A stretch of DNA of 64,000 bases, from the NCBI GenBank assembly GCA_965178125.1, contig OZ237747.1:434001-498000 (forward strand), read 5' to 3'. How positions within the stretch are numbered: position 1 is the first letter of the stretch; the number at the start of each line of letters is the position of its first letter. Both the position numbers and the translations under genes were made by a program. The notes under the pieces were generated by a model. That model saw only the letters and a list, made by a program, of their open reading frames with translations, did not search any database and was not told where the DNA came from. Positions 50,592-64,000 of this stretch are shown here, piece by piece. The stretch comes from Bilabrum cf. latius. Lineage: Eukaryota.

Positions 50592-53487
50592 ATGCTCCTT
50601 GGCTTGACCCCAGTGTTGGTTATACTTGTTGTTTTTCAAGCTGCCGCGGATATTCCTGTCCATTGTGTCCATAGACAAGTGAGGTTGGATTGAACACGAG
50701 CTCAGTTCACGCGACCAAACTGAGTGGTATGCACCCAACTGTGTGTTCGCCCCCGCATTTATCGCATTCATGCAGGTTCGAGGGAAATGGAGGTTCAAAG
50801 TAGGCAAAGGAGAGGGTGGAATAGGGCAGACTTGTGGACATGCGCTGCCGGATGAAGTAATGACATTGTTGGATTAGGGTGTATCCTATGATTCTCCCAA
50901 CTTTGAAGTCGATCATGAGTTTGAGGTAGATCTCAGCGATCCTGATGCAGTAACTGTGTCCAAAGGGACTGTAAAGGGGCCTGGTGGGGAAGAGGTGGGT
51001 GCAGACGAGCTTCAGCGATTCGCTTCGCTGCATGCCCTGTCGTCGAACAGCATGAAGAGCGGATCGCATGGCCGATGGACAATGGTATACGACGAGGGTA
51101 TGGATGTCTACGTCGGTGGCAGATCGTACTTTACCTTTTTCCGATATTCGAAGCGGAAGCAGTCCTCCCAGCCGGACAAGGTCGAGGACTTCAAGTGGCA
51201 CTGCGGGGAGACGCTGACCGGGTGGTTCCACCCGCAGCCGGACGGCTACCTTCCGGGTGGTCCCGGCGGCTAGCATGCGATGGGTCACCCTCCCGCCTCA
51301 GATTCCAAATGGGGCTGCTTCATCGCCAAGTAGATCGAGGGCCCGAGCGTGGGTGTCGCAACCAACGAGGACGGGAAGGCCGGCCTCGCGATCACCACAG
51401 AGGACCCTGTGGCGGTGCTGTCTCCCACTGAGGAACAAGGCGAGCCCCAGGACGAGGAGAGGTTCTCGACCCAGCGGCTGGGCGAGGGGGGCGAGGGTAC
51501 CGCCGGTGCAGGGCTGGAGGCCTAGGGGGGGCAGACGGGGGAGAATTCTGTCGGCAGCAGCTCCCTTCGCGGCCTGGCTGCTCTGACAGGGGGAAGCAGC
51601 TCCTCCACAGACCTTGGAGTCGGCACCCGTGCTTCGAGCGAGTCCATTGTGGACGCCATGCCGCTACCCGACTTCAGCGCCGGCGCGCCAGTGTCACCTT
51701 CCATGGTCAGGGCGCTCGCGGCGAGGAGGCACCCCAGTGCTGCCGCAGCTGGTGGCGGTGATATGGCAAGCACTGGGGCGGCTGTCGCGCATGGAGTGGA
51801 TGGGGAGGCATCCTTGCTGCAAGCCGGGGCTGATGCTGGTGCTTATGCCGAGGCTGATGCTGCCACAGATGCCGCAGCGTCCTTTGCTGGAGTGCCATCG
51901 TGGCGCAGTGAAGACTCTGCTGATACCGCCAAGTTCCGCTCGAGCCGGGCGTTTGTGGACCACGTGAACGGCCGCGAGGACCTTACTTGGTCCGCTCGGG
52001 TGCATCCGAGCCTGGAGGGCATGCCCGAGTCTGAGGTGAGGCAGAGGCTGGGTGCCTCCAGCTGGGGCAAGACGGAGGCGCACAGGAGAGCCGCGCTCGA
52101 CAGCGCTCAGCTGGCCGGAGCGGAGGGGCAGGGCCAGGGCGAGGAGCGGGAGCTTGGATCACGAACGGCGGGCAGGGGCGGGGCGGTGCTGGCACCCGCC
52201 GCGATGGGTGGCGGATCGGAGCAGCACAGGTTCCGCTCTTAGAATGCGCGGCGCCGCACGTATGCCCAGGCTCGCGCGCTGTCTCTGTCTAGTTTCCCCG
52301 ATTCGTTGGACTGGCGCAAGGTGGACGGCGGGGCCTACGCCACCAGGGTGGTGGACCAGGGGCAGTGCGGGTCTTGCTACGCGGTCGCGGCCACGGATGC
52401 GATCAGCATGCGGCGGCTGATCCGCAGGGCGATCCTCCAGGGCAAGTACTAGGGGAAGATGGACCTCGGCGATGGCAAGGTTGTGATGCTTGACAACCAG
52501 CTGCACGCGGCAGGGGGAGGCGATGGGGCCCCGCCGTCCACCCAGATGCAGGCCGAGGCTCTGCTGCAGGTGGGCGCCAGTCGCCCCGATGATGCCGAAT
52601 CTGAACCGGGCACGGCCGCAGAGGTGTCTGCGTCTGGCGCACAGCTCGGCGTAGGTGGGTATAGCTCCGGGCTGGGTTACTTGGACGACCCCAAGGAATC
52701 TCCAGCGGCTGCCGACATCGTGAGCGTGCAGTCTGCCCTGTCTTGCTCCGTCTACAACCAGGGCTGCGATGGGGGTTACCCCTACTTGGTCGCAAAGTTT
52801 GGGTACGACGTGGGCTTCCTTCCCGCGGTGTGCATGAAGTACCAGGCGTCCGACGGTGAGTGCACCGCAGGCAGTGGAGGCAGTACGGGGTCCGTGTGCG
52901 CCCCGCGGGAGAACGACGGTGTAAGGTTCGTCTCGGAGCGCAGGGAACAATCAGAGGGATCGGATGAGGACTCATCGCTCACGTCGGGTGCAAAATCATT
53001 CGCGTCTGCCGCGGCCTAGGCTGCTTCGTCCGCCCTGAAGCTGTACGCGATGGCTCCCCGCTCTCACACGGGGTGGTGGGGGTACGTCGGAGGGTACTTT
53101 GGAGCATGCAGCGAGACTGCCATGGTGGAGGCGCTGCAGAGGGGACCTATCACTGTGGATCTGTATGCCCCTGGGGACCTGTTCTACTACGGGGGTGGTG
53201 TGTTCAACTCGCCCGCGGCACCCGGTGGATTCCATGACATCGAGAGCAAGGGGGCATCCAGGTGGGAGAAATCGAACCACGCCGTGGTCTGTGTCGGGTA
53301 CGGGGTCGATGGTGACGGACAGAAGTATTGGATTATAAAGAACTCTTGGGGGAAGGACTGGGGCGAGAACGGTTACTTCCGCGTGAAGCGTGGTGAGGAC
53401 GTTATCGCGGTGGAGTCCAGCGCCACTGAGCTGGAGCCTTATGTCGAGCCTGACATTGTGTCTGGGAGTGTCGATAGTTCTGGGTGA
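50592..53487 (+). CDS. CTSC: Cathepsin C / dipeptidyl peptidase I (papain family C1A with exclusion domain), ~932 aa; intron 50679-50775
   Basis: Signal peptide, then [15 protein letters not shown]. Exclusion domain [10 protein letters not shown]...WGCF. Catalytic [33 protein letters not shown] and KNSWG. 7 TAG. Ends TGA. Confidence 0.9.
50679..50775 (+). other. Spliceosomal intron (GTGAGG...TGCAG, 97 nt) in the cathepsin C gene
   Basis: Removal joins [10 protein letters not shown] to VRGKW across a frame change. Confidence 0.85.
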
Positions 53488-53639: not shown

Positions 53640-56435
53640 ATGTCAAGCCTCGTCAAGCATATATTTGGCATCGAAGGAGGCTCTTTGGCACTCGCGCGAG
53701 CGGTTAGCAGGCAAATGAAAGCGAGCATGTCGCCACATCACACCACTCCGCGACATCAGACTGGCAGTGACGTCGCCCCATTTTGCCCCCGCACATCGCA
53801 GAAATCGCACTTACACAAGAAAGCTTCAACCTAGCATGGACTTGATGGAACTTCTGACACAGGATTGTTGTCGAGAACCGGCGATCTGGACAGTGCTAGG
53901 ACGTAGTACGACCACGGCACCACACGGCTGCCAGTGGTCGAGGTGGATAGGACCGAAACCGAATACTCGATGGAATGGAAATTGTCCGTGGAGCCTTACG
54001 TAAAGTACTGGATGCTTTTCGGGGCGCTGGCTTTCGTTGTTGCAGCGGCTGTCACTGTCGGCTTACACGTAGCTGGTATTGCGGAGGGTAACGCCGCCAT
54101 CGTCCAGAGTGGATTTCCTTTCGCAGTACCGGCTGTCGCATTCGGGATCCTACTTCTGCTAGACTTGCTTAGTCTTTCCGTTCCTACGCTTGCGCGCCCG
54201 CCCCACCTCGTTATTCTCGCGTCCACTCTTGTGAGATTCGGGGCTGCAACGAGCTATCTGATCCAAGCCTTGGACCTGGCACCAAACCTCGTCATGCGCG
54301 AAGGAAGCTGGCTGGTACCTATTCGATACATTGACTGGCTCGTGACCACGCCAGCGCTCATAACCCTGCTTGGCTCACTGGTCGAGGCGCCCGCCTCGGT
54401 ACTAGGCACCAGCGTGGCAGCTGACATTATCGCCCTCGTGCTAGGCATGCTGGCGAGGCCATCTCCCCCAGCGGCTCGGTACGTTCTGATCGCCTTGGCT
54501 TGCTTGTGTTTCTCTGTTTCTATGTGGGGCTGTGCCCTGATGCTGCAGGACGCTCACGCCCGCGCGCTCAACGAGGCCAGTCGCCGCCGCGTGTGGGCCG
54601 TGAGCATCGTGGTGGGGCTGCTGCTGTGGGTGTACCCCTTGATTTTTATCCTGGAGGGCGAGCAGGCCATCGACGCATTTGAAAGAGATGTGTTCTTTTC
54701 TGTGGCTGATATCGGCGTGAAGATCGGTGTGACGAGTGTGCTCTCCCGCATGAGCATCCTCCGGTTCAGCGAGGAGCTGGATATGTCTGCGGCAGTGCTG
54801 CAGCACATTGCACGAGAGAAGGCGAGGCTGCTGGACGCGGTTCGCAACAGGGTGCAGCCATCTCTGGAGAGCCAGCTGGCCAGCATCGAGGAGCTCAGCA
54901 AGGTCATGAAGAAGTCCGACGCTGGGGACGAGCAAATTGGAATGCGCCCTGAAAAGCAGATCAGCGAGCCATCAAAGCGCCAAGCTGCCAGCAGCAAGCT
55001 GTTTGGGGAACGCAATCAGGCAGCATCGAGGACCAGAAGTATACGCTCTGTCAGCAGCGCGATGGCTGGCAGTTGCGCGGGCAGCGTATCCTCCTTCCTG
55101 GACCCCATTGAGGCCATCGACAACGTGTACAGCCTGGCGCTCAGCATGTCCAAAGCCATGAACGATGTGGCCATGTACGAGCAGGCGACCAGCCGCACAC
55201 TCAAAGCAAGGATCGCGCCTCTCAACCCCGTGGCCCTCTACAGGCCCATCCGAGCCAGGGTGCGGGGCCTGGCTCTGCGCAAGAACATCAAGACGGAGTT
55301 CCTGTGGCTGGACAGCGACGGCTTCGTGGACGATGTGGGCGCGCTGGTGGACATGCGTGCTCTGCAGTTTGTGCTGCTGACCACGGTGCACTCGGCGGTG
55401 CAGTCGGCGGGTCGCAACGGCAGCGTGCTGGTGCTGTGCGAGGTGCTGCCGCACCACAAGCGGTCAGCCTACCGGGGCTCGGCGTGGCACGGGAGCAGCG
55501 AGGACACCAGCGGGGGAACACAGGGGCATCACGCGTACTTCCTGCGCGTGCTGGTGTGCGACAGCGGGGCCAGGAGCGTGGACCTGGATCCTGCCGTGCG
55601 GGCCCGCAAGTCGGAGCAGCAGACGCAGCTGATGGTGGGTCAGAAGAACCGCGCGATGGCGGACAGCGCGGCGATGTTCCGCAGCCAGGCGCGCCAGGAG
55701 GCGGACCAGGAGCGGCGGACGTTCGCCATGTACTCGCGCGGCGTGAGTGCTGAGCTGTCTCCGGCGGAGGCGATCGCCGCAGTGCACCCGGAGAGGCCGG
55801 TGGACGGGCGCATGACTGCGCGGGAGCTGATGGCGCTGGGACAGGCGCAGGACTCAATGGCAGACAGGGGGCGCGCGGCGAGTGCGATGGAGCTGGGCCT
55901 GTGTCGGTTCTTGGTGGAGAGGATGCGGGGGGCGGTGAGGCTGCTGCCCGGCGTTGACATCGACACCGTGTCGGAGGCTAGGAAAGCCAGCTTGCAGCAT
56001 GGTGCCTCCGCTTCCAAGATGTCCACTGGTGCAGCTGTAGGACCTGATTCGAGTGGGCAAGATGCTGCCTCCGTGGGAGCCGTGAGCAATAGAGACGAAG
56101 CAAATTCGAGCTCCGTGTAGGTCAAAGAATCAGGCAGGATGAAGGTGCTAGAGGATGAAAGAGATTCGCACAGGATGCCAACTGAAACGTTAGACGAAAG
56201 AAGCAGCATGATCCTGGGCATTACTTCCGCTGATGGAATGGACAGAGTTGCTGAAGACAGGTTGCAGTATGTACTGGAGATGGTCGTCCCGCTGCATTCA
56301 GTGGCAGGTCTACAGCATATGTCAGGAAATAGAGGGCATCTTGAGGCCTTTTGGGGCAGCGGCGGTGCATCTCAAGTTTTGCAACACCTTGCTAGATCGC
56401 CTGGGGCTCATGTGGCTGTTGGTGACCTTTCGTGA
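53640..56435 (+). CDS. Microbial (type-1) rhodopsin, 8 TM, fused to a degenerate histidine-kinase (HisKA/HATPase-like) module, copy 1, ~930 aa; start uncertain (53640/53715/53727)
   Basis: Helix C RYIDWLVTTP, helix F YP, and helix G DIGVK (Lys codon 54720). These are followed by KARLLDAVRNRVQPSL, DMRALQFVLLTTVHSAVQS, LRVLVCDSG, ELGLCRFLVERMRGAV and YVLEMVVPL. TAGs at 53832, 53904 and 56118. Ends TGA. Confidence 0.85.
55091..55949. repeat. Near-identical inverted copy of 62391-63250 (a second block ~54499-54850 matches ~63541-63890)
   Basis: Reverse-complement comparison by eye shows long stretches of identity between the two rhodopsin paralogs, interrupted by diverged linkers. Confidence 0.9.
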
Positions 56436-56560: not shown

Positions 56561-58846
56561 ATGCAACAAGCCATGGTGCAGCTGAAGATTTCGCAATCAA
56601 CTTGGACCGCACTAGCTCGAATATCATTTTGTGGCGAGCTCGCACCTAGTATCAACGTACAGACAGCGGCAGTGGACGCTGTGAATAGGCTTAAACCGCA
56701 CATATGCTGCGCTGTAATAGACTAGTACGCTAGACGCGGTATTATCGTTGCCGTCGCCGGAGAGTCTAGACAATCGACAAACGACTTGTTGGAGCACGCC
56801 TTGCAAAGTATTCGGGATACTATCTACGAGATGTAGTCGCAAGGCATGCATTCTGTTGGTGAATATGTTACATTCGAGTCTATTCAGTGTTTAGGGGGTC
56901 TTGCTTTGGTGCATCCAGTGGTGCCTCGGACGTCGAAGAGAGTGTCCGCAAGCCCCACGCCTCTATGGCGGTTCTGCCAATCGCACCCAAATCTAGCTGC
57001 ATAGATATTGAACGCTTGGATTTCAAACGTGTCTCGTTTGCAGTCATGCACCGGAATTTTGTCCGGAGCTCATGCAGTGCTCGGTCCCGACTGCCTGGTC
57101 TGCAGTGCAGACGGGCTTGACGCCCACTGTGTTATGCGGACATCATTGATCGTCATACCAGGCATTCTTTAGCTGGCTATTCAGACGGAAAAATGGCGGA
57201 TCCGCATCGCTAAGACAGATGCGTCTGACTTTTGCTCGCGTGCCAGTTGTACGCATGGATCCAGCAAGCAGGACGGAGCATCGCCACCGCTTGCATCGAC
57301 TTGCAGCGTGCTGGCAGCGCGCAGAGGTGCGTACTGCGCAAGCAGCGAGGATGCTCGTCCAGCGGATACTGCGCTAGTAGATTCATATGTGTGGCCGTGC
57401 CTGATCCCCGCTACAGTGCGGGGAATATCCAGCGGTGGTGCAGGATCCTCGGAGCCGACGGTGGCTGTCGATCTGCAACTCGGAAGCACCGGCAGCAGAC
57501 TATACACTGACATTTTGGGTGATTTCTAGTCTCAACGGTGTAACATCCCAATATCACAGTTGATTCTTTCCTCCGCACCCCTCCGGAGCAAGAGCGCAGA
57601 AGCAGAGGCTGTCTGCATCGAGCAGCTGCTCGCTGCCTGTTCTCGGCTGCCGTTCGTAGAGAAGGTGGATCTGATACCCAGCGAGGGTCTGCCAGCCTCA
57701 ACCAAAGCATCCATACCTGCACAATCAAGCGAGGCGAGGTTTGCAAAGCTGCCCGTGGTCGACTTGCCAGCAGAGCCAGTCACCGTCCCTGCCTCCAAGG
57801 CAGCCACCGCGAGGAATATGTGGCCGGTGCCCACGAACACGCTGGGAGTGGAGCTGCTGGAGCAGCTGTCGCCTGCGATCTGGTTGAAGCTGGGACTACC
57901 GGTTGATCCTGTTGAGGGCACGGCGGTGGGAGCTTCGGCAAGCAGTGCAGATTCTGCGGCCTCGGGAACAGGGGCGGAGAAGTCGGGAGCCGCGCATCCT
58001 TTTGAGCACATTCAGGCAGCTGCGCGCCTACTTCTGTCCTCTGTCTACCGCTAGGCGGGAGCTGCTGGAGCCGTGGAGCCCGACGACCCCCTGGCTGGCG
58101 TAGCGGACGCGGAGCTCGAGAGGCTTTAGAGAGAAGCAGAGAGAAGGCGGCGCCAGCACGAGCGCAAGAAGTTTGCAGAGCGGTTCAAGGCCGCCAAGGC
58201 GAGCTTTGTTGCGGGTAAGCAGTACACAAATCACCGCAAAGAAGCTGAGCAGGAGGCCAAGAAGGAGGGCATTCATGTGCACGCGCAAGCCAGCGCAAGG
58301 CCCGGACCTGCCACGGCCACCGAGCACGTCGCCGCGCCTGAAGAGGCGGAGGAATGGGCTCTCGTGCTGGGCAAGCCCAGCAACTTGGGCGGCAAACGAA
58401 AACGGTAGCACGGTGTTCCAAAGTCTCATAAAGCCGGGTCAGGAAAATCGACCGCGAGTCAGTCCAAGCCCCAGAAGCAGGTGCACAGTGATGCTGAAGC
58501 AGTCGCAAAAATGCCAGCATCAAAGCACCGCAGGGTTTCCGCAGCATCCGGATCTAGCAAGGGTGCTGCATCAAGAGCAGGAGCGGGCGCCGCATCTAAG
58601 GGCGCTGGCACTACTCTCACAGCACTCAGAGGCAGAGAAGCATTGAAGGCACCTCCGGTCCGCGTAGCACCCATGCAGGGGGATGCAGGTCGGTCGATGA
58701 AGGTGCTTGGGCAAGCAGGCAAGTCCGCAGGAGCACCTGCTAGGGGGCAACCCGGCAGCAATTTGGCTGGACTGGATAGTGGCAGTGACTCCAGCCTCTC
58801 CAGTGACAGTGACGACTCGCTCGACTTCTCTGATGACGAGGACTGA
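56561..58846 (+). CDS. Hypothetical protein, ~761 aa, with an acidic C-terminus
   Basis: Single frame from ATG 56561 with 8 TAG and no TAA/TGA until 58844. It fills the intergenic space but has no recognised motif. Confidence 0.6.
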
Positions 58847-58956
58847 GTCCAAGCAGGGGTGACGCGAGCGGCCTTGGTAGGGGCGTGTAAGGGTGAAATT
58901 CTGTAACATGATTCCGATTGCTAGCAAGAACAAAGAACGATTCCAATGCAGTCAGC

Positions 58957-61556
58957 TCAGATTCTCACAACGGAAGCCCTCACCCGCTTGCTTGCATCAT
59001 GAGACACAGCGCGCTTCTTCTTGCCTCCGTCAGTCGCAGCAGCAGCAACAGCAGCAGTCGGATCCGACTGCGGATGTACCTCCAGCCGACAGTAGAAACC
59101 AGCCGACCGAGAGCGGCACAGCTGCCCGTGGCTCACCACCACAGTGCCCTCGATGTCCTTCACGAAAGGAGCGAGCCTGGACGGCAGCAGCAGCACGTCC
59201 GGCTTCAGCGGCATGGCAACGTGGGCCTGCTAGGCCAGGTCCAGAGGGAGGCCCTCGGAGGGAGGGAACACTGGGTAGAAAGACCTCTGGTCCAGGAGCT
59301 GGGCGGCGAGTTGCGGGATGCGCTGCGGGCGCGGGGCTCCTGGCGCGTGCTTGAACGTGGACTGCGAGCCGAGGTCACGCAGCACGTCCTCTGCAACGGT
59401 AGAGAAGACCATGCCACCCACCGAGAAGGTGCATGGGTTCGGCATCAGCGTCACTCTCTGCATGTAAGGGATTCAACAAGGAGAGTAGGAGCAAGGTGTG
59501 GGTGGAGCAGGCTCACAAGCACGAGACGCTTTGGTGCGCAGCAGGACATTCGGTGCCCGCGGGCCAACCGCTCTTCCGAGGCACGGGGAGCTCCTGGGGC
59601 AAAGAAAACATGCAGCGTACAATACAAAACAAAACAAAACGAAAGCATGCGTACTGGTCTCACCTGTCTTGGCACCTCTCCGATGCCCTCGAGCATGGAG
59701 GAGTCGAACTGTGGCTGGGGGAAGACCGGCTCGCCGAGCACCCCGGTCGTGGCCGGAACGATCACAACCCTGCACTTGCTCAGAGCAGGCGACATGAGCG
59801 CCTCCTCCACTGCAGGCAGCACCCTCAGTTCCCACAGGTCCTAAAAGGTGATGCTGAACACCACTCCGTCGTCGTTCGGCAGCCGGATGGTGCCTCGCCT
59901 GCACGCGGGGTGGGAATCGTCCAGAAAGGGCCCCTGCAGAACGAGCACGTCGGGGGGGCACTCCGCCTGCTGAGCCTCCATGAGCAGGTCGAGCAGCGGC
60001 TGGAACGCAAGATCGTCGTGAGTGCAGAAGGGTCCGGACGCCGCCCACAGGCGCATCGGTCCAGAGCCAGTTGTCTCGGCGTGCTCAGCCCTGGCAGACA
60101 GCACTGGGATGGGCGTCTTGGGTGTCGGCAGCGGGGCAGCGTCCATGATCTCCTTGGCAACCACACAGTTGCCGTCTGAGTTGATGCCCTTCGCCACGAT
60201 GACCTGCCCGGGGAACAACGAAAATGCGGGCACCTCGTCGACCCTCAGCCGCGCCCTTGAGCCCTCACTTGACCCGATGGACCCCTCCAGCAGCAGCTGC
60301 GTGGGTTTCAGCTTCCCATCGGACTCGCCCATGACCCTCCCGCACACCATCACCTCGGTCTGAGAAGCATCAGATACGCCGGAGAGGCCCTCCTCTTGCA
60401 TGCCCTTGGCCTTGAGGATGGCACGCCCGATCACCTCGCACCGAGCGTCCAATGCTTCGGCACGGCGATCCGGAGTGGTAAACATGTACTTGAAGGGGCC
60501 GGGCAGGGTACCCGCCCCGAACCTCGAGTGCTTGGCCAGCACGGGCCTGGCTTCCAGCGCCCCCGTGCCGTCGGTGCCAACGGCCCACGCCCCCCTAGCA
60601 GCCAAGGTGCCGCTCGCCACGGGGATGAAAGGCTCCGTGGACTCGTCCCCGAACTCGCCTGCCGCATCGTACGTGGTCACAACATCGCCAGCGTTCTTTC
60701 GCGTCTTGTAGGCGGAGCCGGGGGTGGCCCTCCCACTGCCACTCGAGGAGGACGAGGCACCTGGTCCTGTAGCGGGCGTGCTCGCAGTGGATACTGGGCG
60801 CGAGGCGGGGGTGCGCGGGGCGGTCGATGCCCCGCCCTTGGCCTGCCCGCCCATGCTAGATGAGCGGCCGAGCGTCCTTGGTCCAGCGCCAGAATCCATA
60901 GGCGCTTGCCCGAACGAGTCCCTCCTCGACTGGCGCGCCTCTCTTCTGGCAGACCCGCCAGGTGCACGGCCCGTATGGGAAGGAGTTCCGTACCCGCTGG
61001 ATTTCCCTGGCTTATCCTGCGAAACAGTACTTACACGAATAACAAATCAAATGGCAAATGTGAATCAAACGATCTGCGAAATTCGAGATAATCTTGATTG
61101 CAGCTAGCTCGACCGAATGCCTAGGGTGCTCACCTCGCCAAGTCCCAGCATGGTCTCAAACGATGTATCACCAACGTCACCGTCATCCATCATGACAGCA
61201 CTTCCTACTCCTAGGTCACCGGCAGCCTTACGGCCTCTTGAGGCTACCATGCGAGCAGCCATCTGCTTGACTACTCCGACATCCACCACGGCAGACTTGC
61301 CACCGCTCAGTGCAGCTTCGCAGAGATCGGCAATATCTTCAGCATTCATTCCAGCATCAGACGCCATATGGAGACCTGCGGGGATGGGTCAAGCAGCGGG
61401 GCGGCGGCAAGACTGCGGTAAGAATTCAAATCTCGCAATTGAACCGGATAATTGCGTGCACACTGTCATCATACATTGGGACTGTGCTTCATCGGATGCA
61501 AATTTAAGACTTCTAGCAGCTAGTTCTCGCTGTACTAGCGAGGATAAGCTTGACAT
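58957..61556 (-). CDS. POLA2: DNA polymerase alpha subunit B (Pol12), ~725 aa; introns 61376-61474, 61017-61133 and 59458-59663
   Basis: FKYMF, VCGRV, LLLEGS, FSLFPGQVIVAKGIN, AASGPF, PDVLVLQGPFLD, VFPQP, MPNPC, QRSFYPVFPP, PDVLLLPS. Three GT-AG introns give a continuous frame. Ends TGA. Confidence 0.9.
59458..59663 (-). other. Spliceosomal intron (GTGAGA...TGCAG, 206 nt) in POLA2
   Basis: Removal joins VPRQ to RVTLMPNPC across a frame change. Confidence 0.85.
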
Positions 61557-61679: not shown

Positions 61680-64000
61680 TCATGAAGCAGAGTTGCCAAT
61701 CGCAAAAACTCCGCCGGGCGACCTCCCGAGCTGAGGCAGGATCTAAGAGGCGCCGTGCTCGCCCAAAAATGCCCTCAGCTTGGTCTCGTCCCTGGCAAGC
61801 TGCACGATACCAGACACTGTGTGGAGCGGCAGGACCATCTCCAGCACGTATTTGAGCTCCTCTGGCACCACGTGCTCCTCGCCATCGTCTTGGCCCCCAG
61901 TACCAGCGGTCCCAGGCCCTGCTACACCCCTGCCTCCACCAGCTCGCCTCGCGCCCCCACGGACTTGCTTTTTGCTGTTGCCGCGCTCATTTTCTAGCAA
62001 CTTGATCTTCGTTTCAGCAGCACCAGCAGCACCGGAACCGCCGCTAGGACCACTCCCACTGGGACTCTGCCGGCTCTGCGACGCGATCTTCACCATGGCC
62101 TCGCTCGTCGCCTTCGATGCAGGCGTGCCGTGATCGTCCGAGCCGCTTTCCTCGTCGCCCTCCCCTGGCTTTTCTCTCTCCAGACGCATGGCGGGCGGAG
62201 GAGCTCCAGCCTGCACGGCACTCCTCTGCTCAGACAGCTCGAAATCAGTCGTGTTCGTAGACCCCACGGAGTCACCCATCTCGCTGCCGTGGACACTGTC
62301 CCGCATCGAGTTTTTCCACTACCCAGGCAAGTTCCAGCCACCCTGTCTACCTGCCTCGCGGGCCGTGTCCACCACCTCTGATTCCACATCCGGCAGCAGC
62401 CTCACCGCCCCCCGCATCCTCTCCACCAAGAACCGACACAGGCCCAGCTCCATCGCACTCGCCGCGCGCCCCCTGTCTGCCACTGAGTCCTGCGCCTGTC
62501 CCAGCGCCATCAGCTCCCGCACTGTCATGCGCCCGTCCACTGGCCTCTCCGGGTGCACTGCGGCGATCACCTCCGCCGGAGACAGCTCAGCACTCACGCC
62601 GCGCGAGTACATGGCGAACGTCCGCCGCTCCTGGTCCGCCTCTTGGCGCGCCTGGCTGCGGAACATCGCCGCGCTGTCCGCCATCGCGCGGTTCTTCTAA
62701 TCCACCATCAGCTGCGTCTGCTGTTCCGACTTGCGGGCCCGCACGGCAGGATCCAGGTCCACGCTCTTGGCCCCGCTGTCGCACACCAGCACGCGCAGGA
62801 AGTACCCGTGATGCCCCTGTGTTCCCCCGCTGGCGTCCTCGCTGCTCCCGTGCCACGCCGAGCCCCGGTAGGCTGACCGCTTGTGGTGCGGCAGCACCTC
62901 GCACAGCACCAGCACGCTGCCGTTGCGACCCGCCGACTGCACCGCCGAGTGCACCGTGGTCAGCAGCACAAACTGAAGAGCACGCATGTCCACCAGCGCG
63001 CCCACATCGTCCACGAAGCCGTCGCTGTCCAGCCACAGGAACTCCGTCTTGATGTTCTTGCGCAGAGCCAGGCCCCGCACCCTGGCTCGGATGGGCCTGT
63101 AGAGGGCGACGGGGTTGAGAGGCGCGATCCTTGCTTTGAGGGTGCGGCTGGTCGCCTGCTCGTACATGGCCACATCGTTCATGGCTTTGGACATGCCGAG
63201 CGCCAGGCTGTACACGTTGTCGATGGCCTCAATGGGGTCCAGGAAGGAGGTCGCCATCACGGTGCTGCTGCTGTCCCTAGCTCGCTCAGAAGGTTTAGTG
63301 AAACTCCCAGTGCTGATCAGCACGGTTGCAGCCGAGCCCTCGACATTCTTCTCTCCTAGCAGCTTGCTAGGGGGTGCCCTGCGCCGCATACCAGCACCCT
63401 GGTCTGGCCTTGATCCGCCCTATTGCCCCACTGTCATGTAGGAAGCAGAAGCGACAGCTACATCCTGGGACTTCTGCGCCACTAGCACACGCCTCAGCTC
63501 CTCGATGCCGGACAGCTGCTGCCCCAAGGAAGGACCGACCCGATTGCGCACCGCACCCAGCAGCCTCGTCTTCTCTCGCGCCATGTGCTGCAGCACTGCC
63601 GCAGACATATCCAGCTCCTCGCTGAACCGGAGGATGCTCATGCGGGAGAGCACACTCGTCACACCGATCTTCACGCCGATGTCGGCCACAGAGAAGAACA
63701 CATCTCGTTCAAATGCGTCGATCGCCTGCTCCGCTTCCAGGATAAAAATCAAGGGATACACGCACAGCAGCAGCCCCACCACGATGCTCACGGCCCACAC
63801 GCGGCGGCGACTGGCCTCGTTGAGCGCGCGGGCGTGGGCGTCCTGCAACATCAGGGCACAGCCCCACATCGAAACAGAGAAACACAAGCATGAAAGCACG
63901 AACAGAATCCATCGAGCCGCTGGGGGAGATGGCCTCGCCAGGATTCCGAGGATGATCATGACGACATCGGCGATGACGGTCGTGCGCAGGACCTGCACCG
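61680..64000 (-). CDS. Rhodopsin-degenerate histidine kinase fusion, copy 2 (5' end beyond the window)
   Basis: Paralog of 53640-56435 covering helices D-G (DIGVK) and the kinase-like module. TAGs at 63420, 62697, 62319 and 61743. TGA at 61680. Confidence 0.85.

What the first reader, a model, noticed from the sequence alone, without database searches (positions are those of the whole stretch)
54420..54510. The two rhodopsin paralogs differ at retinal-pocket (colour-tuning) positions
Seen: helices F-G are almost identical, but helices D-E differ. Copy 1 has ADIIALVLG and RYVLIALACLCF; copy 2 (~63880-63975) has ADVVMIILG and RWILFVLSCLCF. By manual alignment to bacteriorhodopsin these are position 118 (Ala vs Met), 138 (Ile vs Phe) and 141 (Ala vs Ser). 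Established: these residues line the beta-ionone ring pocket and affect absorption. Inference: a spectrally distinct pair, with copy 1 predicted blue-shifted, sharing one output module and possibly enabling colour or depth sensing.
Basis: inference. Interest (0 to 1): 0.7.

Follow-up and report, generated by a model that had tools for sequence, protein, structure and literature searches.

The report
Twin rhodopsins with diverged retinal pockets
A single-celled eukaryote carries two mirror-image copies of a light-sensor gene that are kept almost identical except where the protein touches the far end of its retinal pigment, and one copy has naturally acquired the changes that engineers use to shift such proteins towards blue, so the pair probably senses two colours.

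Summary
Two inverted paralogs (53640-56435 +; 61680-64000 -, running past the window; TAG read as Gln) encode an 8-helix rhodopsin fused to a histidine-kinase-like core that lacks the phospho-acceptor His, ATP motifs and receiver. Both keep Lys216, Asp85 and Asp212, and spliced contigs cover both loci. Alignment to archaerhodopsin-2 confirms A/M118, I/F138 and A/S141, plus L/I119 and W/C183. Copy 1 is the derived one: a relative's gene matches copy 2 at 18 of 18 pocket sites, and 128 of 144 homologs have Met118. Published mutants at 118 and 141 shift blue, so copy 1 is predicted about 20-45 nm bluer (extrapolated, not measured). New here: gene conversion has homogenised helices C, E-G and the kinase-like core but spares two indel-free islands in helices D and E; the second ends exactly at codon 141. 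That resembles the divergence peak of primate red/green opsins. The statistics are modest (p 0.006-0.25), helices 0-B are also unconverted, and only one close outgroup exists. Colour-split enzymerhodopsin paralogs are known (fungal RGC1/RGC2). Verdict: a new variant of histidine-kinase rhodopsins; colour or depth sensing is untested.

The parts
53640..56435 (+). Copy 1 gene: rhodopsin fused to a pseudo-histidine-kinase core; three in-frame TAG (Gln) codons; start ATG inferred from likeness to an N-terminal Met-Ser-Ser-Leu stretch in copy 2
53703..53801 (+). 99-nt in-frame GT..AG intron, skipped in contigs of runs X1 and X2, present in X4
   Evidence: tables 5 and 8
53991..54782 (+). Copy 1 rhodopsin domain, 8 predicted helices (extra helix 0); R82, D85, T89, L96, D212, K216 (K216 at 54720-54722)
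54393..54449 (+). Unconverted island in helix D; holds Ala118 (54432-54434) and Leu119; 8 of 8 same-residue codons differ synonymously between the copies
54450..54478 (+). 29-nt run identical in both copies (D-E loop), a short conversion tract between the two islands
54479..54500 (+). Unconverted 22-nt island at the start of helix E (11 differences); holds Ile138 (54489-54491) and ends on the last base of Ala141 (54498-54500)
54627..54629 (+). Trp183 (Cys in copy 2 and the relative), a single-base change inside a converted tract, next to the shared Leu182
54801..54926 (+). DHp-like helix 1; Asn at the phospho-acceptor His position; partly diverged between the copies
55095..55949 (+). Kinase-like core (DHp helix 2 and HATPase-like part with degenerate N, G1 and G2 boxes), homogenised between the copies
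56118..56435 (+). C-terminal part beyond the in-frame TAG; carries a stretch conserved in both copies and the relative; no receiver domain
56561..58846 (+). Unknown ORF between the copies (start uncertain); homolog lies 3' of the rhodopsin gene in the relative
58922..61556 (-). DNA polymerase alpha subunit B gene (spliced) between the copies; bounds approximate
61680..64000 (-). Copy 2 gene (continues to about G000:C13:498730-498830); Met118 at 63957-63959, Phe138 at 63900-63902, Ser141 at 63891-63893, Cys183 at 63762-63764
50770..53487 (+). Cathepsin C-like gene, 5' neighbour of copy 1

Best explanation
An ancestral rhodopsin-pseudokinase gene was duplicated into an inverted pair. Copy 2 kept the ancestral ring pocket (Met118, Ile119, Phe138, Ser141). 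Copy 1 replaced these with Ala, Leu, Ile and Ala. That removes bulk and a hydroxyl beside the beta-ionone ring, lets the ring twist, and should shift absorption about 20-45 nm towards blue. Repeated gene conversion keeps the Schiff-base half of the pocket and the output core alike, while conversion tracts that would erase the helix D/E differences are selected against. The cell thus has two spectral inputs to the same kind of output. The output is probably not autophosphorylation: light would act through the long helix after helix G on a dead DHp/HATPase-like core, which changes the activity of a partner, most likely one of the genome's many active hybrid kinases. Shown: residues, polarity, conversion mosaic, intact frames, spliced contigs, missing catalytic motifs. 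Inferred: retinal binding, the shift and its size, selection as the cause of the islands, and the partner.
For: Pocket mapping. Copy 2 equals the relative at 18 of 18 pocket sites although they differ at 51 of 147 others (p=0.001); copy-1-derived changes 4 of 18 vs 9 of 147 (p=0.038); paralog vs ortholog contrast p=0.006. Among 144 homologs: Met118 in 128, Ala in 3; aromatic 138 in 120 of 143, Ile in at most 1; Ala118 with Ala141 in 1. AR3 mutants: M128A 536, M128A/S151G 505, M128A/S151A/A225T 491, A225T 540, wild type 552 nm. S141A-type blue shifts in BR, GR and the enzymerhodopsin NeoR. Synonymous differences between copies: helix D island 8 of 8, D-E loop 1 of 10, helices E-G 10 of 92, core 9 of 263. 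The helix E island ends at codon 141 between identical runs of 29 and 20 nt. Control: 1 indel-free island among 106 identical runs in 11 comparisons of kinase paralogs, 0 in the closest analogue pair (27 runs), against 2 in 23 runs here, both in D/E. Islands cover 3 of 6 literature tuning sites, p=0.033. A divergence peak under conversion is the described signature for red/green opsins. Spliced contigs cover both loci. A carotenoid-oxygenase (RPE65 family) gene is present.
Against: No spectrum. Between the copies alone pocket enrichment is not significant (p=0.25), nor within the islands (4 of 6 vs 6 of 21, p=0.15). Islands cover 5 of 18 pocket sites with p=0.18; the smaller p values depend on site lists chosen after seeing the data. 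Helices 0-B, the DHp helix and the C-terminus are also unconverted and hold no ring-pocket site, and copy 1 evolves faster there too (16 vs 6 and 22 vs 11 derived residues; branch 0.19 vs 0.039). Only one close outgroup was found. Gly122, which gives the largest synergy with Ala118 when enlarged, is unchanged. The conserved Trp182 is Leu in all three sequences, so archaeal mutant data may not transfer. The kinase identity of the output is weak by sequence (no Pfam hit; hhalign probability 43-51%), and the model that matched kinases was built with kinase rows in its alignment.
Confidence: 0.6

Rival explanations
1. The pocket changes are selected, but for something other than colour: photocycle speed, bistability, isomer preference, or a different ring-modified retinal that needs a roomier pocket. 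Any spectral shift is a by-product.
For: All main changes enlarge the ring pocket. Mutants at these sites also change the all-trans fraction (41-75% across the table). HKR1 is bistable. Trp183 appears next to the shared Leu182. A Gly at a helix-E position opens a carotenoid-antenna window in xanthorhodopsins; that this position equals BR 138 is recalled.
Against: 118 and 141 are exactly two of the three sites of a published blue-shifted triple mutant. Ile138 is not the Gly that makes a window.
Confidence: 0.2
2. No selection on the pocket: copy 1 is under relaxed constraint, and the islands are stretches that drifted past the similarity needed for conversion; pocket residues changed along with their neighbours.
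For: Copy 1 is faster in every unconverted region. Within-island enrichment p=0.15; pocket coverage p=0.18. dN in the helix E island is high (0.71 vs 0.10 for copy 2-relative, 7 codons), which fits relaxed as well as positive selection. Converted/unconverted mosaics are common in this genome's kinase paralogs.
Against: Frames are intact and dN stays far below dS in helices 0-B (pN 0.27-0.34, pS 0.82-0.86). A 22-nt indel-free island between identical runs is rare in the control (1 in 106 runs). The pocket is invariant between copy 2 and the relative. Spliced contigs cover copy 1.
Confidence: 0.17
3. The pair is an assembly or allelic artefact (two haplotypes, or a mis-polished repeat).
For: Long near-identical tracts between nearby inverted copies.
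Against: Different flanking genes; synonymous saturation outside the tracts; copy-specific D-E sequences found without differences in runs of three studies.
Confidence: 0.02

Closest known systems
Histidine kinase rhodopsins (HKR, 2c-Cyclop type of green algae and other algae)
   Same: 8-helix rhodopsin followed by a long helix and a DHp/HATPase-like core; the rhodopsin domain falls with HKR-architecture hits in one branch (SH-like 98).
   Different: No phospho-acceptor His, degenerate N/G1/G2 boxes, no receiver or cyclase domain; Asp85 and Leu182; occurs as an inverted, gene-converting pair.
RGC1/RGC2/NeoR rhodopsin guanylyl cyclases of Rhizoclosmatium globosum (PMC7655827, PMC8815786)
   Same: Clustered enzymerhodopsin paralogs with one kind of output and different colours (550 and 480 nm); a precedent for heterodimers.
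   Different: Active cyclase output; tuning there is tied to the BR Pro186-type site (the BR number is recalled), which is Pro in both copies here; no gene-conversion mosaic appears in the passages read.
Engineered blue-shifted archaerhodopsin-3 mutants M128A, M128A/S151G, M128A/S151A/A225T (PMC4479019)
   Same: Same positions (BR 118, 141) and the same Ala substitutions as copy 1.
   Different: Engineered proton pumps with Trp182/Trp189 pockets; copy 1 lacks the Thr215 and Val122 changes and adds Ile138.
Primate L/M opsin pair (as reviewed in PMC3924837)
   Same: Neighbouring duplicates homogenised by conversion, with a divergence peak at tuning sites.
   Different: Unrelated type-2 opsins; tandem rather than inverted; there the spectra and population data are known, here neither is.
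Pseudo-histidine kinases such as DivL
   Same: DivL, CusS and RetS kinase cores are the top non-rhodopsin fold matches (Z 12.9-13.1); His replaced (DivL's role as a pseudokinase is recalled).
   Different: Bacterial, not fused to a rhodopsin; the match rests on a model biased by kinase rows.
Salpingoeca rosetta rhodopsin phosphodiesterase (7CJ3, 7D7Q)
   Same: Best structural match of the membrane part, including helix 0 (Z 25.9, rmsd 3.3, 260 aligned; also first).
   Different: Phosphodiesterase output; 18-20% identity.

Membership tests
Type-1 (microbial) rhodopsin | Seven-helix bacteriorhodopsin fold | tested here: met
   PF01036 E 2e-18 and 5e-20; model matches bacteriorhodopsin-family structures
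Type-1 (microbial) rhodopsin | Retinal-binding Lys in helix G with counterion carboxylates | tested here: met
   K216, D85, D212 and R82 in both copies and the relative
Type-1 (microbial) rhodopsin | Binds retinal and photocycles | not testable with these tools
   needs expression; Trp182 is Leu
Enzymerhodopsin | Extra N-terminal helix 0 (8 helices) | tested here: met
   helix at model residues 13-42, pLDDT above 80; aligns with RhoPDE over model residues 7-281
Histidine kinase rhodopsin (HKR) | Rhodopsin domain groups with HKR rhodopsins | tested here: met
   one branch, SH-like 98, FastTree on 132 of 147 rows, no bootstrap
Histidine kinase rhodopsin (HKR) | DHp plus HATPase_c fold | tested here: inconclusive
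   no Pfam hit; hhalign probability 43%, score 37.4 vs at most 29.4 in 30 shuffles; fold match Z 13.1 from a model built with kinase rows; a model from the three own-clade sequences alone had pLDDT 40 and no match
Histidine kinase rhodopsin (HKR) | Phospho-acceptor His in the H box | tested here: not met
   Asn in both copies, Ile in the relative, at the aligned position
Histidine kinase rhodopsin (HKR) | ATP-binding N, G1 and G2 boxes | tested here: not met
   N-box Asn residues absent; G1 keeps D-x-G only; G2 lacks the G-x-G-x-G glycines
Histidine kinase rhodopsin (HKR) | Fused receiver domain | tested here: not met
   no PF00072 hit in either full-length TAG=Gln protein at E<=1
Histidine kinase rhodopsin (HKR) | Light-regulated kinase activity | not testable with these tools
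   needs biochemistry
Spectrally split paralog pair kept against gene conversion (L/M-opsin type) | Concerted evolution of the pair | tested here: met
   pS 0.04-0.22 in converted tracts vs 0.62-0.78 to the relative
Spectrally split paralog pair kept against gene conversion (L/M-opsin type) | Divergence peak at tuning sites | tested here: inconclusive
   two indel-free islands at 118 and 138-141; p 0.006-0.18 depending on the site list; other unconverted regions exist
Spectrally split paralog pair kept against gene conversion (L/M-opsin type) | Different absorption maxima | not testable with these tools
   predicted from published mutants only

The most novel reading that the evidence does not exclude
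The pair is a two-colour comparator in a protist: a bluer and a greener rhodopsin, each fused to a dead kinase core, regulate active hybrid kinases (or each other) by heterodimerisation, and the colour difference is held against gene conversion just as in primate red/green opsins, an independent origin of that evolutionary pattern in microbial rhodopsins.
Probability: 0.2. Interest if true: 0.82.

Novelty: new variant of a known kind. Interest (0 to 1): 0.58.

Why it matters
If the shift is real, this is a natural instance of the Met118Ala/Ser141Ala blue-shift route known from engineered pumps, in an enzymerhodopsin scaffold with an unusual Leu182 pocket. It comes with a ready-made ancestral control (copy 2), and swapping a few residues tests it directly. 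It would extend the 'divergence peak under gene conversion' signature from animal opsins to microbial rhodopsins. It also points to an uncharacterised set of rhodopsin-pseudokinases (this clade plus P0006, P0007, P0028, P0093) whose output cannot be autophosphorylation. Because TAG codes Gln here, standard gene calling cuts these proteins into pieces (P0005, P0008), which may be why they were overlooked.

Tried and rejected
Word-index protein searches: residues 13-700 of copy 1 found nothing among the 8000 candidates scored; the alignment query found only P0005. The metagenome scan gave 3 loci from 60 pattern matches, of which one (L028) is a true close relative and two are short motif matches; no copy-1-like sequence was found in any other organism, which does not show absence. 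The C-terminal profile found no solved-structure sequence at E<=10. The model of the C-terminal module from three sequences was too poor to use (pLDDT 40, no fold match). The language-model atlas look-up of the module is missing, so distant look-alikes there remain unexamined. No Blh-type dioxygenase hit, but no control genome rang either. No Hpt hit in the genome (control rang in 9 of 14), not proof of absence. The run finder listed no holder on record as RNA; RNA origin of X1 and X2 is inferred from spliced joints, and contig depths cannot rank the two copies. A one-residue deletion that would make copy-1 Trp the Trp182 equivalent (suggested by one HMMER alignment) was rejected on the multiple alignment and the relative; model coordinates could not be inspected. 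The last about 80 bases of L028 show no recognisable second copy, inconclusive. The first tree run timed out and was replaced by FastTree. No complex prediction was run: kinase dimers pass by likeness, and 82%-identical paralogs would not separate homo- from heterodimers. The scan's earlier notes held nothing. The organism's lineage was not established; a bicosoecid-like flagellate was only a guess used to choose search words.

Full report
Setting. The window is G000:C13:434001-498000 of a 48.6-Mb eukaryotic assembly. TAG is a sense codon. Reading through it raises frames of 300 codons or more from 23 to 38 and their total from 9,828 to 28,998 codons. Seven long frames hold 110 TAG codons and all end in TGA. 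Of 12 TAG codons in the two copies and the relative, 6 align with a CAG/CAA Gln in another sequence. Contigs of runs X1 and X2 cross the TAG at 56118 without a gap. With TAG=Gln, copy 1 runs from about 53640 to 56435 (+) with one 99-nt intron, and copy 2 from about G000:C13:498730-498830 down to window 61680 (-). The lineage was not established.

Observation. Both copies hit PF01036 and no other family at a meaningful E-value, and keep R82, D85, W86, T89, D212 and K216, with Leu at 96. The alignment to archaerhodopsin-2 puts copy-1 Ala, Ile and Ala on the Met, Trp and Ser that correspond to BR 118, 138 and 141 (numbering of 118 and 141 from PMC4479019; 138 by recalled BR numbering). Copy 2 has Met, Phe and Ser. 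Further differences are L/I119 and W/C183. Both copies have Leu at 182, where 134 of 140 homologs have an aromatic residue. Contigs from three studies match the copy-specific D-E sequences with no other letters; X4 may be the assembly's source, and X1 and X2 are one study.

Which copy changed. A search of 1.84 billion representatives found one close relative, in two fragments that each end where our proteins have Gln (P0005, P0008). Its locus L028 reads as one frame of 964 codons with TAG=Gln. Using a recalled list of 18 BR pocket positions, copy 2 and the relative agree at 18 of 18 while differing at 51 of 147 other positions in helices C-G (p=0.001). Copy 1 differs at 4 of the 18, each time against both others. 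Of the 150 listed hits, 144 were aligned (the two fragments of the relative and four short ones left out): Met118 in 128 and Ala in 3; Phe, Tyr or Trp at 138 in 120 of 143 and Ile in at most 1; Ser141 in 89, Gly in 41, Ala in 11; Ala118 with Ala141 in 1. Copy 1 is therefore derived at sites that are normally conserved.

Expected effect. Supplementary Table 4 of PMC4479019 (passage seen) gives AR3 552 nm, M128A 536, M128A/S151G 505, A225T 540 and M128A/S151A/A225T 491. PMC8815786 (passages) gives blue shifts of about 240, 320 and 560 cm-1 for the Ser141-type Ala mutant in GR, NeoR and BR. Adding the smallest values (about 780 cm-1), or subtracting A225T from the triple mutant (about 1850 cm-1), gives about 20-45 nm near 500 nm. 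This is my arithmetic and an extrapolation to a pocket with Leu182, Phe189 and Val215. The effect of Ile138 and Trp183 is unknown. Gly122, the strongest synergistic partner of Ala118 in that paper, is unchanged.

Gene-conversion mosaic. Synonymous differences between the copies at same-residue codons are 47 of 60 in helices 0-B, 5 of 28 in helix C, 8 of 8 in helix D, 1 of 10 in the D-E loop, 1 of 3 in the start of helix E, 10 of 92 in helices E-G, 10 of 24 in the first DHp-like helix, 9 of 263 in the core and 17 of 27 at the C-terminus. Copy 2 against the relative gives 50-73% in all these segments. So the duplication is old and parts are being homogenised. The helix E island is 22 nt with 11 differences, has no indel, lies between identical runs of 29 and 20 nt, and ends on the last base of codon 141. 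As a control I compared kinase paralogs from 12 of the 47 HATPase_c matches, each cut to about 3 kb. The 11 pairs that showed conversion had 106 identical runs of 20 nt or more and 1 indel-free island; the rhodopsin pair had 23 runs and 2 islands, both in D/E (the control pairs share sequences and are not independent). PMC3924837 (passages) describes such a divergence peak as a sign of selection against conversion, with red/green opsins as the example.

Limits of that argument. Random placement of two islands of these lengths covers 5 of 18 pocket sites with p=0.18, 3 of 6 literature tuning sites with p=0.033, and 4 of 7 when 138 is added with p=0.006; the short lists were chosen after seeing the data. 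Within the islands enrichment is p=0.15, and between the copies overall p=0.25. Helices 0-B are unconverted without holding ring-pocket sites, and copy 1 is faster in all unconverted parts. Relaxed selection on copy 1 is thus not excluded, although non-synonymous divergence stays well below synonymous in helices 0-B.

Origin of the pair. The relative has aminotransferase (-), rhodopsin (+), unknown ORF (+), polymerase alpha B (-), then the contig ends. Here the order is aminotransferase, DDE transposase, copy 2, polymerase alpha B, unknown ORF, copy 1, cathepsin C. The segment between the copies is inverted relative to the relative. Copy 2 keeps the 5' neighbour and copy 1 the 3' neighbour. 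That fits a duplication made with an inversion, or a flip between two inverted copies (inference). In helices 0-B copy 2 is as far from copy 1 as from the relative (39 of 102 each), so the order of duplication and speciation is open, as is the copy number in the relative.

Output module. The model of copy 1 (46-row alignment that included kinase-bearing homologs) has eight membrane helices, a continuous helix from G into a DHp-like hairpin, and an alpha/beta domain. It matches rhodopsin phosphodiesterase best, and its C-terminal part matches CusS, DivL and RetS cores at Z 12.9-13.1. That match is biased by the alignment. A model from the three own-clade sequences failed. Independent support is a collinear hhalign match at probability 43%, score 37.4 against at most 29.4 in 30 shuffles, and the grouping of the rhodopsin domain with histidine-kinase rhodopsins. 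The His is replaced by Asn or Ile, the N, G1 and G2 boxes are degenerate, and no receiver follows. The next relatives (P0006, P0007) also lack the His. I read the module as a pseudokinase acting on a partner; the genome has 47 HATPase_c matches, and several of the 12 loci read show H-box and receiver-like motifs by eye. The partner is inferred only.

Known and new. Colour-split enzymerhodopsin paralogs are known: RGC1 550 nm and RGC2 480 nm, which work as heterodimers with NeoR (PMC7655827, abstract and passages). Canonical HKRs autophosphorylate and carry a receiver (PMC12558739, passages), so this is not a member in the strict sense but an HKR-derived variant. I found no description of such a rhodopsin-pseudokinase pair, or of conversion-protected tuning sites in a microbial rhodopsin, in the listings of searches. 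I saw only listings for most of those papers, the library lacks most subscription journals, and bioRxiv supplements were not seen. Also seen as passages only: PMC7852580, 10.1101/2022.08.24.505090, PMC11687900; 10.64898/2026.06.25.734631 had no occurrence of six terms. Sudo 2013 and Teshima and Innan 2008 were not read; they are cited through the papers above.

Verdict. Observation confirmed; interpretation partly supported and strengthened by polarity and the conversion mosaic. A blue shift of copy 1 is likely (about 0.8); that colour is what selection maintains, about 0.6; colour or depth sensing is open. New variant of a known kind, interest 0.58.

Noticed in passing
whole window; L028: TAG codes Gln in this genome and in the relative; seven long frames all end in TGA, and the meaning of TAA was not determined. 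UAG-only reassignment to Gln is rare: the passages read list a fornicate and a few ciliates.
   Followed up: partly
G000:C18:852390-854684, C12:87345, C12:110372-110834, C8:100912, C1:2473361-2473937 (L005, L007, L008, L011-L015): Further rhodopsin loci; L005 is closest to channelrhodopsins among solved structures and has a long C-terminal part; L005 and L007 form a head-to-head pair. The others were not classified by a search.
   Followed up: partly
G000:C28:531007-531627 (L006): A rhodopsin closest to xanthorhodopsin and sodium/chloride pump structures.
   Followed up: partly
G000 contigs C42, C24, C35, C37, C40, C9, C6, C17, C12: 47 HATPase_c matches, many as nearby inverted pairs or clusters with gene-converted tracts; no Hpt hit was found.
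   Followed up: partly
L003:4142-6493 (-): DDE_1/Tc5-like transposase between copy 2 and the aminotransferase, absent at that place in the relative; it sits directly upstream of copy 2.
   Followed up: no
P0006, P0007, P0009, P0028, P0093: Other rhodopsins fused to kinase cores that lack the His; P0006, P0007 and P0009 have Thr or Ile118, Ala138 and Gly145, an even more open ring pocket.
   Followed up: partly
window 54624-54629: Leu replaces the conserved Trp182 in both copies and the relative; copy 1 has gained a Trp at 183 by one base change inside a converted tract.
   Followed up: partly
G000:C2:821066-823114 (L031, L032): RPE65-family carotenoid oxygenase, a possible source of retinal.
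   Followed up: no
window 56561-58846 (+); L028:5014-7464: Conserved ORF of unknown family between the copies (32% identity to the relative's); no contig of X1-X3 covered most of it, which is no evidence on expression.
   Followed up: no
P0010, P0012, P0055: Rhodopsins followed by a PAS-like domain in the same broad branch; P0055 also has Ala118 with Ala141.
   Followed up: no
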